Part shown: in pieces, positions 50,070 through 52,248 of the stretch | How the letters are laid out: each line of letters starts with the position of its first letter | Position numbering within the stretch: position 1 is the first letter of the stretch | Source of the DNA: an uncultured Mycoplasmatota bacterium | GTDB lineage: Bacteria > Bacillota_I > Bacilli_A > RF39 > UBA660 | Assembly (NCBI GenBank): GCA_900549285.1 | Contig: URNW01000001.1 | Location: 32,252 to 96,251, forward strand | Reading direction: 5' to 3' | Length of the DNA stretch: 64,000 nucleotides | The notes under the pieces: generated by a model | Databases searched by the model: none | Told to the model about the DNA's origin: nothing | What the model saw: the letters and a program-made list of their open reading frames with translations, nothing else | Made by a program: the position numbers and the translations under genes

Positions 50070-50145
50070 GTCTCCTTAGCTCAGCTGGTAGAGCAACTGA
50101 CTCTTAATCAGTGGGTCTAGGGTTCGAATCCCTAAGGGGACACCA
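50070..50145 (+). tRNA. tRNA-Lys (anticodon CTT).
   Basis: 76-nt cloverleaf with CCA end. Anticodon loop CTCTTAA. Confidence 0.8.
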
Positions 50146-50167
50146 TAAATGGGTTTATGTAAAAGAT

Positions 50168-50244
50168 GGGATTGTAGCTCAGCTGGTTAGAGCGCACGCC
50201 TGATAAGCGTGAGGTCGGAGGTTCAAGTCCCCCCAGTCCCACCA
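50168..50244 (+). tRNA. tRNA-Ile (anticodon GAT).
   Basis: 77-nt cloverleaf. Anticodon loop CTGATAA. CCA-encoded. One A.C mismatch in the T-stem. Confidence 0.85.
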
Positions 50245-50250
50245 TTTTTT

Positions 50251-50327
50251 GGTCAGTTGGTGAAGCGGCTTAACACACTGCCCTTTCACGGCAGCATACA
50301 CGGGTTCGAATCCCGTACTGATCACCA
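50251..50327 (+). tRNA. tRNA-Glu (anticodon TTC).
   Basis: Cloverleaf with anticodon loop CTTTCAC. TTCGAATCC T-loop. CCA-encoded. Confidence 0.85.
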
Positions 50328-50341
50328 TAAATTGCTAGAAA

Positions 50342-50370
50342 GGCCCGTATTTACGGGCTTTTATTATGCT
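50342..50370 (+). terminator. Terminator of the tRNA cluster.
   Basis: GCCCGTA...TACGGGC hairpin followed by TTTTATT. Confidence 0.6.
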
Positions 50371-50522
50371 TGAAAATTAGATTAAAATAGCTTTTTTAAT
50401 TAAAAATGATTTAAAAAATGATAAATCATAAATATAGGCTGTACTAATTTGATATCTTTGCTGTTCATAGAAAATAATTGTACTCTTACCTATATTTAAT
50501 AAATCTGCCAATTTCTTTTTCC

Positions 50523-50790
50523 TTAAATTAAGTCTTGTCTTATGTTTTTTAATATTTTTATTTCAGAATTTAATCCAATAGCTTTATTGCTCTTTTCTAA
50601 ATCTGTAAATGCAAGCAAGGAGTCAACTGTAATCCTATAGAAATTAGCTAATTTAATTAAGTTATTTAATGGAATTAGGCAATCATTAGTTTCATAATAA
50701 GAATATAAGGATCTTTTTATATTAATTATATCCAAAATAATTACGTATATTTTTTAATGAACCGCCGATATTAGTATTTGTTCTCATCAT
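50523..50790 (-). pseudogene. Frameshifted XRE/cI-like HTH repressor.
   Basis: N-terminal frame MMRTNTNIGGSLKNIRNYFGYN* (RBS GAGGA) reads into a second frame ...IKRSLYSYYETNDCLIPLNNLIKLANFYRITVDSLLAFTD. Together they resemble a complete XRE HTH domain. Confidence 0.45.
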
Positions 50791-51338
50791 AACCATTTCC
50801 TCTAATTATAATTTTACTTTTTTGTAAAAATATTTGAGTTTTTTGACGTTGGCACCGACTCTTGTGGTATAATAAGATTAATCAAGATTAAAAATTTAAC
50901 TCTATACCATAAATTTGTGTATCTTGATTGGGTTAGTATAAGAATAAAAAACAAACTACTCTTTTTAAATGCTTTTAAAATAAACACAAGCAAGTTCAAT
51001 TAGTTATTTTAATAATATTTTCATATACGAATATAGATGGAGTAGTAGAATTAGGATATACAATCTTTATACAAAATAATTATGTAACAAGTATTTTTGA
51101 TAATACAAATGAAGTTGATTTACCAGATTTGACAAATGAAATTAGTACATTAAAACTTATAATAAGATTGTTTACAAATATTTAACAAAAGAATTTTATG
51201 AATTTACTGAACAGACTAGTATAGATACTTCTGGTGCAATTCAAAAAAATTATAATATAAAAAAAGTATAATGTAAAAATATATTGGCGCAGCGAATTCT
51301 GAATATTTAGAATTTTCTTTAATTATAATGGAGGAAGT

Positions 51339-51605
51339 ATGAATCGAATTAAAATTATAAAAATAATGATATGGCTTGCTTTGATTATATTTATAATATT
51401 TATATTATATTTAATGTTTGTAGAACCTTATACAAAAAATGGAAACCATATGATAACAATGGAAGAGTGCCAAGAAACTTATAACTGTGACTGTACATAT
51501 GATAATGGTAAAACCTGTTTATGCACTTTAAAAAAGTGGCTTATAGAAAAGGAGTATTCTTGTAGTAGAGAAATAATTGAGGATAGCCAAATTATAAAAG
51601 AATAA
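51339..51605 (+). CDS. Small Cys-rich membrane-anchored protein (88 aa).
   Basis: RBS GGAGGAAG. N-terminal TM. Eight Cys in the C-terminal half. Confidence 0.3.
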   Translation: MNRIKIIKIMIWLALIIFIIFILYLMFVEPYTKNGNHMITMEECQETYNCDCTYDNGKTCLCTLKKWLIEKEYSCSREIIEDSQIIKE

Positions 51606-51619
51606 ACTTAATTCCATAA

Positions 51620-51954
51620 CCGAAAACTGAAAAAGGTAAAAAGGGAAAACTAATCCCACAACTTTGCGTAAACATAATACTTGATGTTATTAAATATTGT
51701 GAACAAGAAGTGAAATTATTAAAAGAAAAGTATGGAAATGATATTCAAATTGTTCCAAATTTATTTTTGGGAAAATATGGTGAATACATGTTTCCAGACA
51801 CCTTAACACATAATTTGGGTAAATTTAAAGAAAACATAAAGAAGAACTAACAAAGATAATTGGAAGCAAAAACATAACTTTACATGGATTACGTCATAGT
51901 TTTTGCAACGTATTTCTAATAAGCGTGAAATCGGAGGTTCGAATCCCGTACTGA
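51620..51954 (+). pseudogene. Tyrosine recombinase (phage integrase) C-terminal remnant, frameshifted and truncated.
   Basis: ...KNITLHGLRHSFCNVFL matches the integrase box II (HxLRH). There is no start codon. The frame switches at about 51848. The reading frame runs into the tRNA-like repeat and stops before the catalytic Tyr region. Confidence 0.5.
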
Positions 51955-51967
51955 TCATCATAAATTG
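51921..51967 (+). repeat. Chimeric partial tRNA 3'-half: candidate att site of the element.
   Basis: ATAAGCGTGAAATCGGAGG resembles the tRNA-Ile anticodon-3' half. TTCGAATCCCGTACTGATCAtCATAAATTG is the tRNA-Glu T-loop, acceptor 3' strand and 3' trailer. It cannot fold as a tRNA. A hairpin AGCTCT-aatttt-AGAGCT plus T-run follows at 51975-51998. Confidence 0.6.
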
Positions 51968-52248
51968 TAATAGAAGCTCTAATTTTAGAGCTTTTTTAAT
52001 TGTTTCACGTTAATATAAATTTGAAGCAAGTTTATTTTAGTGCAACGAAAGCCACTATTAATCCTCAAACAATTTATCTTAAAAGTTTAAAAATAATAAT
52101 ATGCAATCTGAAAAATCAATGTTATACCATTACAATTTTGCAAAATAACTTTTTTAAATTATGTAAATTTAGATAATGTGTCTTCTTATATAAATGCAGA
52201 AATTGAGTATGCGATAATAAAGGAAGAGTTTATAGTCAAAGAAAAAGC

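What the first reader, a model, noticed from the sequence alone, without database searches (positions are those of the whole stretch)
50070..51998. tRNA-Lys/Ile/Glu cluster followed by a 1.6-kb decayed integrative element bounded by a chimeric tRNA 3'-end repeat
The 3' end and trailer of tRNA-Glu (GGTTCGAATCCCGTACTGATCACCATAAATTG) recur at 51934-51967 with one mismatch. There they are fused to a tRNA-Ile-like anticodon-3' segment (ATAAGCGTGAAATCGGAGG).

The segment between the two contains only degraded genes:
- a frameshifted XRE/cI-like repressor (minus strand)
- start-less ORF fragments
- a tyrosine-integrase C-terminus (..ITLHGLRHSFCNVFL..). Its reading frame is frameshifted, then runs into the tRNA-like repeat and ends before the catalytic Tyr.

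A terminator hairpin after the repeat mimics the one after the genuine tRNA-Glu.

This is the signature of a tRNA-targeting prophage or island that has since been eroded. The attP core apparently overlapped the int 3' end.
Basis: seen in the sequence. Interest (0 to 1): 0.6.

Follow-up and report, generated by a model that had tools for sequence, protein, structure and literature searches.

The report
Decayed mobile-element remnant at tRNA cluster
A 1.6-kb scar of a dead integrative mobile element sits after a tRNA-Lys/Ile/Glu operon; the element entered at tRNA-Ile, not tRNA-Glu, and its odd "chimeric tRNA" end was made by a later 84-bp deletion, so this is an ordinary, well-explained feature.

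Summary
The 3' end of tRNA-Glu plus 7 trailer bases (50303-50334) recurs at 51936-51967 (31/32). It is preceded by a tRNA-Ile anticodon-to-T-arm segment (51916-51940, 22/25).

A related species has the empty site: CmpB, tRNA-Lys-Ile-Glu, terminator, VanY, with no 1.6-kb segment. So the segment is an insertion.

A sister remnant (L012, integrase DNA ~94% identical) shows the undamaged end. There the integrase stop is followed by ~160 bp, then the tRNA-Ile 3' half starting exactly at the anticodon loop, then a whole tRNA-Glu. Relative to L012 the window has three lesions:
- a 309-bp deletion that removed the integrase 3' end
- an 84-bp deletion between the T-loops of the tRNA-Ile fragment and tRNA-Glu, which made the "chimera"
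- a 1-nt frameshift

The target was therefore the tRNA-Ile anticodon loop, and the attachment site did not overlap int.

Full-length relatives of the integrase lie next to a VirD4-like coupling protein and an excisionase-like gene, and end at tRNA-Arg 3' halves. This points to a conjugative or mobilizable island rather than a prophage.

The XRE gene carries four lesions. One 88-aa Cys-rich membrane ORF is intact and belongs to a conserved family. The remnant is fixed in this species.

Verdict: ordinary, a new member of a known kind.

The parts
50070..50145 (+). tRNA-Lys(CTT), first gene of the tRNA operon
   Evidence: ARAGORN; Rfam tRNA 70.5 bits.
50168..50244 (+). tRNA-Ile(GAT), the inferred integration target. 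Its 3' half from 50200 onward lies inside the duplicated block.
   Evidence: ARAGORN and Rfam 69.2 bits. The repeat boundary falls at the first base of the anticodon loop.
50251..50327 (+). Intact tRNA-Glu(TTC). By inference it was supplied by the element, as part of its attachment-site segment.
   Evidence: ARAGORN and Rfam 61.2 bits. It folds as a cloverleaf, z = -2.15. The origin is inferred from its linkage to the trailer.
50200..50334 (+). attL copy of the duplicated block: tRNA-Ile anticodon loop to its 3' end, a TTTTTT spacer, the whole tRNA-Glu, and TAAATTG.
   Evidence: Alignments; repeat searches.
50335..50410 (+). Element-type trailer, including terminator hairpin 50339-50362. It is 87-88% identical to the sequence that follows int, the tRNA-Ile fragment and tRNA-Glu in L012.
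50419..50790 (-). XRE-family two-HTH regulator pseudogene. Lesions: a 23-bp deletion, a 7-bp deletion, a 1-bp deletion, and loss of the last ~25 codons.
   Evidence: Pfam HTH_3 6e-10. Intact 157-aa homologues P0123 and P0124 at 80% identity. DNA alignment to L026.
50791..51045 (-). Upstream (promoter) region of the XRE gene, conserved together with the gene in L025 and L026.
   Evidence: blastn 84-85% identity over 50419-51045; alignment.
51046..51338 (+). Segment of unknown origin holding frameshifted ORF fragments without start codons.
   Evidence: Six-frame translation; no Pfam hit.
51339..51605 (+). Intact 88-aa ORF with a GGAGG ribosome-binding site: an N-terminal transmembrane helix plus a domain with 6 invariant Cys. 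Function unknown.
   Evidence: ORF list. 15 family representatives at E<1e-3 and the alignment. Structure model pLDDT 80.6 with no fold match. The exact protein is indexed in 367 collection blocks.
51620..51906 (+). Tyrosine-integrase internal fragment, about aa 290-385 of 430. It has a 1-nt deletion frameshift near 51830. It keeps the HGLRH box and lacks the N-terminal ~289 aa and the catalytic Tyr.
   Evidence: Translations; P0001 at 70% identity, E = 9e-29; tblastn of L015 and L016 integrases; DNA alignment to L012.
51900..51915 (+). Junction of the 309-bp deletion (microhomology TTTTTGCA), followed by the element-side flank CAACGTATTT of the attachment site.
   Evidence: Alignment to L012.
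51916..51967 (+). Degenerate attR: tRNA-Ile anticodon-loop-to-T-arm piece (51916-51940) fused, through an 84-bp deletion within GGTTC (51936-51940), to the tRNA-Glu T-loop, 3' end and TAAATTG. It carries four GC-to-AT substitutions.
   Evidence: It is not a tRNA and does not fold.
51972..51995 (+). Second terminator hairpin, inferred to be the host's original tRNA-operon terminator.
   Evidence: It occupies the same position as the terminator in the empty-site locus L021.
52249..53256 (-). Flanking host gene: VanY-type D-Ala-D-Ala carboxypeptidase. In the empty site it abuts tRNA-Glu directly.
   Evidence: Pfam VanY 2e-39; synteny.

Best explanation
**What it is.** This is the fixed, non-functional remnant of an integrative element, most likely a conjugative or mobilizable island. 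Its tyrosine integrase recombined in the anticodon loop of tRNA-Ile, the middle gene of a Lys-Ile-Glu tRNA operon.

**What the element carried (inferred).** Its attachment segment held three things:
- the 3' half of tRNA-Ile
- a complete tRNA-Glu
- a terminator

Integration therefore rebuilt a working operon at attL (50168-50362). It pushed the host's own tRNA-Ile 3' half, tRNA-Glu and terminator to attR, next to int.

**How it decayed (shown by alignment).**
- An 84-bp deletion between the T-loops of the tRNA-Ile fragment and tRNA-Glu turned attR into the 52-nt 'chimeric' pseudo-tRNA.
- A 309-bp microhomology deletion removed the int 3' end and the arm-site region.
- Further deletions removed the int 5' ~860 bp and almost all cargo.
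- Frameshifts hit int and the XRE regulator.

**Present state.** Nothing here can excise any more. The only parts likely still working are the rebuilt tRNAs, their terminator, and possibly one small Cys-rich membrane protein gene.
For: **Insertion shown.**
- A related species (VanY 72% aa identity, flanks 78-80% nt identity, same gene order) has tRNA-Glu, a terminator and VanY without the segment.

**Integrase homology.**
- The fragment is 70% identical to P0001, E = 9e-29.
- It covers aa 290-385 of the 430-aa integrases in L015 and L016.

**Undamaged end in L012.**
- Its integrase DNA is 94% identical to the window's.
- It shows int stop, ~160 bp, CAACGTATTT, the tRNA-Ile 3' half starting at the anticodon loop, TTTTTT, a full tRNA-Glu and TAAATTG.
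- The window differs from this by exactly the 309-bp and 84-bp deletions, each at a microhomology.

**Family habit.**
- In L015 once and in L016 twice, int is followed by three TTAGTNCCCA repeats and then by a tRNA-Arg(TCT) 3' half that starts at the anticodon loop.
- Anticodon-loop crossover with a common block running to the tRNA 3' end is an established class of island attachment site (PMC4383910; bioRxiv 10.1101/2020.11.02.365908).

**Element-type trailer at attL.**
- The window's proximal trailer is 87-88% identical to the trailer that follows int and the attachment site in L012.
- All other trailer pairs are 58-73% identical.

**Conjugative context.**
- VirD4/CD1115-family coupling protein, above the NCBIfam cutoff.
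- HTH_17 excisionase-like gene immediately upstream of int.

**Decay of attR.**
- Four GC-to-AT changes.
- No fold.

**Fixation.**
- About 100% identical copies occur in metagenome contigs from many samples.
Against: - No intact tRNA-Ile-targeting element was found. L012 is itself a remnant on a 1.7-kb contig, so its junction could be attP-like (tandem array or episome), or an attR in a host whose native trailer resembles the window's proximal one.
- The few polymorphisms within the tRNAs do not show which copy is host-derived and which is element-derived. The window's proximal block is slightly closer to the empty-site species (3 differences) than to L012 (5 differences).
- The window holds no conjugation gene, so the element type rests only on relatives at about 70% integrase identity.
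- The empty site comes from a different species, not a sister strain. The closest relatives (L017-L019) are rearranged by an IS at this locus.
Confidence: 0.82

Rival explanations
1. First reader's model. The element integrated at the 3' end of tRNA-Glu through a ~32-bp core. Its attP already carried the chimeric tRNA-Ile/tRNA-Glu piece and overlapped the 3' end of int.
For: - The present-day exact repeat is only the 32 nt at the tRNA-Glu 3' end.
- The int frame reads into the repeat.
- T-loop or 3'-end crossover is a known sublocation class (PMC4383910).
Against: - Relatives have a full int C-terminus that ends 160-250 bp before the tRNA fragment.
- L012 shows the undeleted tRNA-Ile-half plus tRNA-Glu arrangement with the same CAACGTATTT flank.
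- All four att fragments of this integrase family start at an anticodon loop.
- An attP with the 84-bp deletion, used at the tRNA-Ile anticodon loop, would have broken the proximal tRNAs. That is the opposite of what is seen.
Confidence: 0.07
2. The remnant derives from a temperate phage (prophage) rather than from a conjugative or mobilizable island.
For: - The XRE regulator resembles phage repressors: phrog_8 8e-14, and the NCBIfam RstR family at 74.7 bits, just under its cutoff of 80.
- The integrase hits phrog_1.
- Distant phage integrases, 25-28% identical, exist.
Against: - No phage structural or lysis gene remnant is present.
- The closest full-length integrases are adjacent to a T4SS coupling protein and a primase, not to phage genes.
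- No relative of the integrase, the XRE gene or the att junction was found in IMG/VR or INPHARED.
Confidence: 0.1
3. No mobile element was involved. The distal tRNA-like piece is a local segmental duplication of the tRNA cluster's end, and the interval is native, fast-evolving intergenic DNA.
For: The duplicated pieces are short, and the locus is rearrangement-prone in relatives: IS insertion and an inversion in L017-L019.
Against: - An integrase fragment with 94% nt identity to another remnant lies directly against the tRNA fragment, with the same flank.
- The XRE gene and its promoter occur elsewhere in unrelated contexts.
- The empty site exists.
- The geometry matches the tRNA-plus-displaced-fragment rule for islands (PMC4383910).
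Confidence: 0.01

Closest known systems
tRNA-integrated genomic islands with anticodon-loop ('A' sublocation) attachment sites, as catalogued by Islander (Hudson, Lau & Williams 2015, PMC4383910; Williams 2002)
   Same: - An intact tRNA gene and a displaced 3' fragment in direct orientation bracket the element.
- The tyrosine integrase lies inside the interval.
- The common block starts in the anticodon loop and runs to or past the tRNA 3' end.
- Tandem arrays occur; L016 has two.
   Different: - The integrase here is a 96-codon fragment, and the displaced fragment has an internal 84-bp deletion. An automated fragment-plus-integrase search would probably miss it or misplace it at tRNA-Glu.
- The target is an internal gene of a polycistronic tRNA operon, and the common block spans a whole second tRNA gene.
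Temperate phage HP1 of Haemophilus influenzae (integrates in tRNA-Leu; Hauser & Scocca 1992, as cited in PMC12540744 and PMC3448106) and 186-type phages with long common cores
   Same: - Integration occurs inside a tRNA gene cluster.
- A long common core restores the tRNA after insertion (PMC3448106).
- From my own memory only, not checked here: the HP1 core (~182 bp) also includes a complete neighbouring tRNA gene. That would be the direct precedent for an element carrying the downstream tRNA.
   Different: - HP1 is a functional P2-like phage of Proteobacteria.
- This is a dead remnant in a 26%-GC member of the Bacilli, and its integrase relatives are linked to conjugation genes.
- Integrase identity to phage integrases is below 30%.
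Firmicute integrative conjugative/mobilizable elements with a CD1115-family VirD4-like coupling protein, an excisionase and a tyrosine integrase at one end
   Same: Relatives L015 and L016 show the order coupling protein (NF045973, above cutoff), HTH_17 Xis-like gene, int, att.
   Different: - None of these genes except a piece of int survives in the window.
- No relaxase or VirB4 was seen in the 10 kb available upstream in L015. ICE versus IME therefore cannot be decided even for the relatives.

Membership tests
tRNA-integrated genomic island (Islander definition) | Intact tRNA gene plus a displaced fragment of the same tRNA gene in direct orientation, marking the two ends | tested here: met
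   tRNA-Ile and tRNA-Glu intact at 50168-50327. The fragment at 51916-51967 lies in the same orientation.
tRNA-integrated genomic island (Islander definition) | Integrase gene inside the interval | tested here: inconclusive
   Only an internal, frameshifted fragment (aa ~290-385 of 430) remains at 51620-51906. Homology is clear, but there is no functional gene.
tRNA-integrated genomic island (Islander definition) | Absence of the interval from a related genome (empty attB) | tested here: met
   L021-L024 show CmpB, tRNA-Lys-Ile-Glu, terminator and VanY in the same synteny, without the segment. This is a different species, not a sister strain.
Anticodon-loop ('A') sublocation attachment sites | [quoted passage not shown] | tested here: met
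   The block starts at the C of CTGATAA (50200 and 51916), and at the equivalent base in L012. The tRNA-Arg fragments in L015 and L016 start at CTTCTAA. The strand-exchange point itself cannot be tested here.
Tyrosine recombinase (Pfam PF00589) | Complete catalytic set R...K...HxxR...H/W...Y | tested here: not met
   The window keeps only the HGLRH box. The first Arg region and the C-terminal GH...Y are deleted. The Pfam score of 12.4 bits is below the 27.1 cutoff. Full-length relatives pass.
Integrative conjugative element (ICE) | Relaxase, coupling protein and type IV secretion genes in the element | tested here: not met
   None is present in the window interval. A coupling protein is present only in relatives L015 and L016.
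Prophage | Phage structural, packaging or lysis genes, or similarity to known phages | tested here: not met
   PHROGs hits are limited to the integrase and the regulator. No DNA match in 50,697 phage records. No relatives in IMG/VR.
XRE/HTH_3 transcriptional regulator | Intact reading frame with HTH_3 domain(s) | tested here: not met
The gene has a 23-bp, a 7-bp and a 1-bp deletion and lacks its last ~25 codons, compared with the 157-aa homologues.

The most novel reading that the evidence does not exclude
The species' working tRNA-Glu(UUC), the 3' half of its tRNA-Ile and their terminator may now be of mobile-element origin. On this reading, the element integrated into the middle gene of the tRNA operon and brought a replacement for everything downstream. 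The host's own tRNA-Glu then lost its promoter and was destroyed by the 84-bp deletion. The dead element's end would thereby have become indispensable, which would explain why the scar is fixed across the population. This would be a concrete case of tRNA gene replacement and 'addiction' by an integrative element.
Probability: 0.4. Interest if true: 0.4.

Novelty: new member of a known kind. Interest (0 to 1): 0.22.

Why it matters
The value is mainly for annotation and method.
- It shows how two small deletions can disguise an attachment site as a "chimeric tRNA" and move the apparent target to the wrong tRNA.
- It shows how one sister remnant plus an empty site resolves that.
- It documents an uncharacterised integrase lineage in uncultured low-GC Bacilli. 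The lineage uses tRNA anticodon loops (tRNA-Arg and tRNA-Ile) and travels with conjugation genes.
- It gives a likely example of an element that enters an internal gene of a polycistronic tRNA operon and compensates by carrying the downstream tRNA and terminator. A Klebsiella survey proposed that islands avoid such sites (bioRxiv 10.1101/2020.11.02.365908).

None of this changes current understanding of island biology.

Tried and rejected
- **Empty-site search in JGI metagenomes.** An exact 22-nt pattern for an empty site in the same species (tRNA-Glu CACCA plus the distal trailer) found nothing.
- **att-junction search in JGI metagenomes.** This pattern also found nothing, not even the window's own type. 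The collection simply lacks this organism, so both negatives are uninformative.
- **IMG/VR viral contigs.**
  - The full-length integrase, the XRE protein and the att junction gave no relatives.
  - The tRNA-Ile 3'-half pattern hit only an unrelated phage tRNA array, L014.
- **Phage and plasmid collections.** The integrase has only relatives below 30% identity. The 1.6-kb DNA has no match in the phage records; it was not searched against the plasmid collection.
- **CmpB look-up.** The exact CmpB protein is not on record.
- **Closest VanY relatives (L017-L019, 82-88% identity).** I hoped these would be sister empty sites. Instead they carry an IS next to VanY and have the CmpB-tRNA block inverted.
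- **Host versus element origin from tRNA polymorphisms.** There are too few informative sites.
- **A second element at the window's tRNA-Arg(TCT).** This is the target of the L015 and L016 relatives, but the site is unoccupied here.
- **Function of the 88-aa ORF.** No Pfam, NCBIfam or PDB-fold match. The alignment was too variable for a viral-contig scan.
- **Literature.** Williams 2002 (PMC100330) is not held. The HP1 182-bp core detail could not be verified.
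Full report
**1. Observation**

The window has 26.5% G+C. ARAGORN and Rfam agree on three tRNA genes:
- tRNA-Lys(CTT), 50070-50145
- tRNA-Ile(GAT), 50168-50244
- tRNA-Glu(TTC), 50251-50327

The last 25 nt of tRNA-Glu plus TAAATTG (50303-50334) recur at 51936-51967 with one mismatch. 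Just upstream, 51916-51940 matches the tRNA-Ile anticodon-loop-to-T-arm segment 50200-50224 at 22 of 25 positions. Each pattern occurs exactly twice in 64 kb and never in 100 shuffles. Neither ARAGORN nor Rfam (E<=10) calls the distal piece a tRNA, and it has no stable fold, z = +1.3. Both copies are followed by strong terminator hairpins, at 50339-50362 and 51972-51995.

**2. Content of the interval**

- **XRE gene, minus strand, 50419-50790.** After repair it is 80% identical to intact 157-aa proteins with two HTH_3 domains, P0123 and P0124. Compared with L026 it has a 23-bp deletion, a 7-bp deletion and a 1-bp deletion, and it lacks the last ~25 codons. Its upstream region to 51045 is conserved with the gene in L025 and L026.
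- **51046-51338.** Only broken ORF pieces, with no family match.
- **88-aa ORF, 51339-51605.** This is intact. It has a GGAGG ribosome-binding site, a transmembrane helix and six invariant cysteines. Its family is small but real: 15 representatives at E<1e-3, 35-51% identical. It has no Pfam, NCBIfam or PDB-fold match. The interval is thus not made only of degraded genes.
- **Integrase fragment, 51620-51906.** It encodes about residues 290-385 of a 430-aa tyrosine integrase and has a 1-nt frameshift.

**3. It is an insertion**

Contigs that carry a VanY orthologue of 72% identity (L021 from NCBI assembly GCA_964261755.1, plus L022-L024) have the same gene order as the window. That order is CvpA, thioredoxin, a 100-aa gene, CmpB, tRNA-Lys-Ile-Glu, VanY, RNase III, SMC. 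In them tRNA-Glu is followed only by a terminator, and the VanY stop codon lies about 70 nt from the tRNA.

Within the window's own species the remnant is fixed.
- Contigs from many independent samples are about 100% identical across it.
- The exact 88-aa protein is indexed in 367 collection blocks, and a 129-kb scaffold (L027) matches window 47001-54500 at 99.99%.

**4. What the ends really are**

Searching with the integrase fragment found two proteins with a complete C-terminus...HGLRHSFCTYMR...GHTDI.TT..YTH.... In L012 the integrase DNA is 94% identical to the window's. Its stop codon is followed in order by:
- about 160 bp
- CAACGTATTT
- the 3' half of tRNA-Ile, starting exactly at the anticodon loop
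- TTTTTT
- a complete tRNA-Glu
- TAAATTG and a terminator

A direct alignment shows that the window differs from L012 in three ways:
- a 1-nt deletion, which is the frameshift
- a 309-bp deletion whose ends share TTTTT[G/A]CA, which removed the int 3' end and fused ...HSFC to CAACGTATTT
- an 84-bp deletion whose ends share GGTTC, the T-loops of the tRNA-Ile fragment and of tRNA-Glu

The 'chimeric tRNA' is therefore a deleted attR, and the att site did not overlap int. The surviving attR also carries four GC-to-AT substitutions, as expected for unselected DNA in an AT-rich genome.

**5. Integrase family and element type**

A genome scan found full-length relatives in two uncultured Bacilli MAGs, L015 and L016. 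L015's host genes are about 77% identical in protein to genes in the window, so the hosts are related.

In all three copies the order is as follows:
- a VirD4-like coupling protein (NF045973, CD1115 family, above cutoff)
- a ~105-110-aa HTH_17 excisionase-like gene
- int
- about 250 bp containing three TTAGTNCCCA direct repeats at spacings of 22 and 12 nt, which are candidate arm sites
- the 3' half of tRNA-Arg(TCT), starting at the anticodon loop

L016 holds two such units in tandem. L015 also has a primase and an ABC transporter upstream. No relaxase or VirB4 was seen in the sequence available.

Known phage and plasmid integrases are below 30% identical. Nothing related was found in viral collections.

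Anticodon-loop crossover with a common block running to the tRNA 3' end is one of the established attachment-site classes (PMC4383910; bioRxiv 10.1101/2020.11.02.365908). tRNA fragments left by such integrations are common (PMC9897764).

**6. Most likely history**

*Shown:*
- The segment is an insertion relative to the empty site.
- The common block starts at the tRNA-Ile anticodon loop.
- The 84-bp and 309-bp deletions and the other lesions are visible by alignment.

*Inferred:*
- The integrase exchanged strands in the tRNA-Ile anticodon loop. Everything to the right at attL (tRNA-Ile 3' half, tRNA-Glu, terminator 50339-50362 and the trailer to 50410) then came from the element. The host's original tRNA-Ile 3' half, tRNA-Glu and terminator were displaced to attR beside VanY.
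- Support: the proximal trailer is 87-88% identical to the trailer that follows int and the att site in L012. All other trailer pairs are 58-73% identical.
- An attP that already had the 84-bp deletion, used at the tRNA-Ile loop, would have broken the proximal tRNAs. That is the opposite of what is seen.

*Caveats:*
- L012 is itself a truncated remnant on a short contig. Its junction may be attP-like or an attR.
- Polymorphisms inside the tRNAs do not discriminate origins.

**7. Comparison and verdict**

This is a decayed tRNA-integrated island of the anticodon-loop class, a known kind. Two features are slightly unusual. The target is an internal gene of a polycistronic tRNA operon, and a whole downstream tRNA lies within the common block.
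- Long common cores that restore tRNAs are documented for 186-type phages (PMC3448106).
- HP1 integrates in tRNA-Leu within a tRNA cluster (PMC12540744, PMC3448106).
- My recollection that the HP1 core contains a complete second tRNA could not be checked.

The most novel reading still open is that the species now depends on an element-borne tRNA-Glu. Testing it needs the genome-wide tRNA count.

Overall this is an ordinary feature with a neat, now-explained anatomy, and interest is low.

Noticed in passing
window 51339-51605: The only intact ORF in the remnant encodes an 88-aa protein with an N-terminal transmembrane helix and six invariant cysteines. It belongs to a small conserved family (about 15 representatives at 50% clustering) and has no Pfam, NCBIfam or PDB-fold match. 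It may be a retained cargo gene.
   Followed up: partly
window 51968-52236: About 210 nt more lie between the distal terminator and the VanY stop than in the empty-site species L021 (~60 nt). This stretch matches none of the fetched loci from other species or elements (L012, L015-L024). Its origin is unknown; it could be older debris or lineage-specific intergenic DNA.
   Followed up: partly
L017 9612-10395; L018 9321-10104 and 10192-11710; L019 3197-5280: In the closest VanY relatives (82-88% identity), an IS (rve plus HTH_28 transposase pieces) sits next to VanY. The [100-aa gene, CmpB, tRNA-Lys-Ile-Glu] block is inverted relative to the window and L021. This tRNA locus is a rearrangement hot spot in the clade.
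   Followed up: partly
L016 1583-5700 and 5700-11583: Two integrase-bearing units lie in tandem, each ending in a tRNA-Arg(TCT) 3' half. The second is only ~5.9 kb (SSB, unknown genes, Xis-like gene, int) and has no coupling protein. It may be a small mobilizable element that shares the integration module.
   Followed up: partly
L015 11329-11378; L016 5426-5478 and 11331-11378: Three direct repeats, TTAGT(C/A/T)CCCA, lie between the int stop and the tRNA fragment. In L015 and in the second L016 unit the copies are spaced 22 and 12 nt apart; the first L016 unit has the same motif three times at a similar but not identical spacing. They are candidate arm-type integrase binding sites. The region is deleted in the window, and only one copy survives in L012.
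   Followed up: partly
L012 1271-1702: An aminoglycoside-phosphotransferase-like ORF lies about 200 bp beyond the element-type trailer in the sister remnant. I recognised it by eye from its N-terminal sequence and did not scan it. It may be cargo of an adjacent element.
   Followed up: no
L028 1-3437 versus window 50167: This contig is identical to the window from the first base of tRNA-Ile onward. Upstream it has phosphoglucomutase and PNP genes instead of CmpB and tRNA-Lys. This is probably an assembly join through a second tRNA-Ile copy, though it could be a real rearrangement.
   Followed up: no
window 28367-28443 (minus strand): tRNA-Arg(TCT), the target used by the L015 and L016 relatives of this integrase, is present in the window. 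It is unoccupied: there is no repeated 3' half and no integrase nearby.
   Followed up: yes
window 50217-50236 (tRNA-Ile T-arm): The T-stem of tRNA-Ile carries an A-C mismatch (GGAGG/CCCCC), flagged by Rfam. L021 and L018 share the same sequence, so it is a lineage trait rather than damage.
   Followed up: partly
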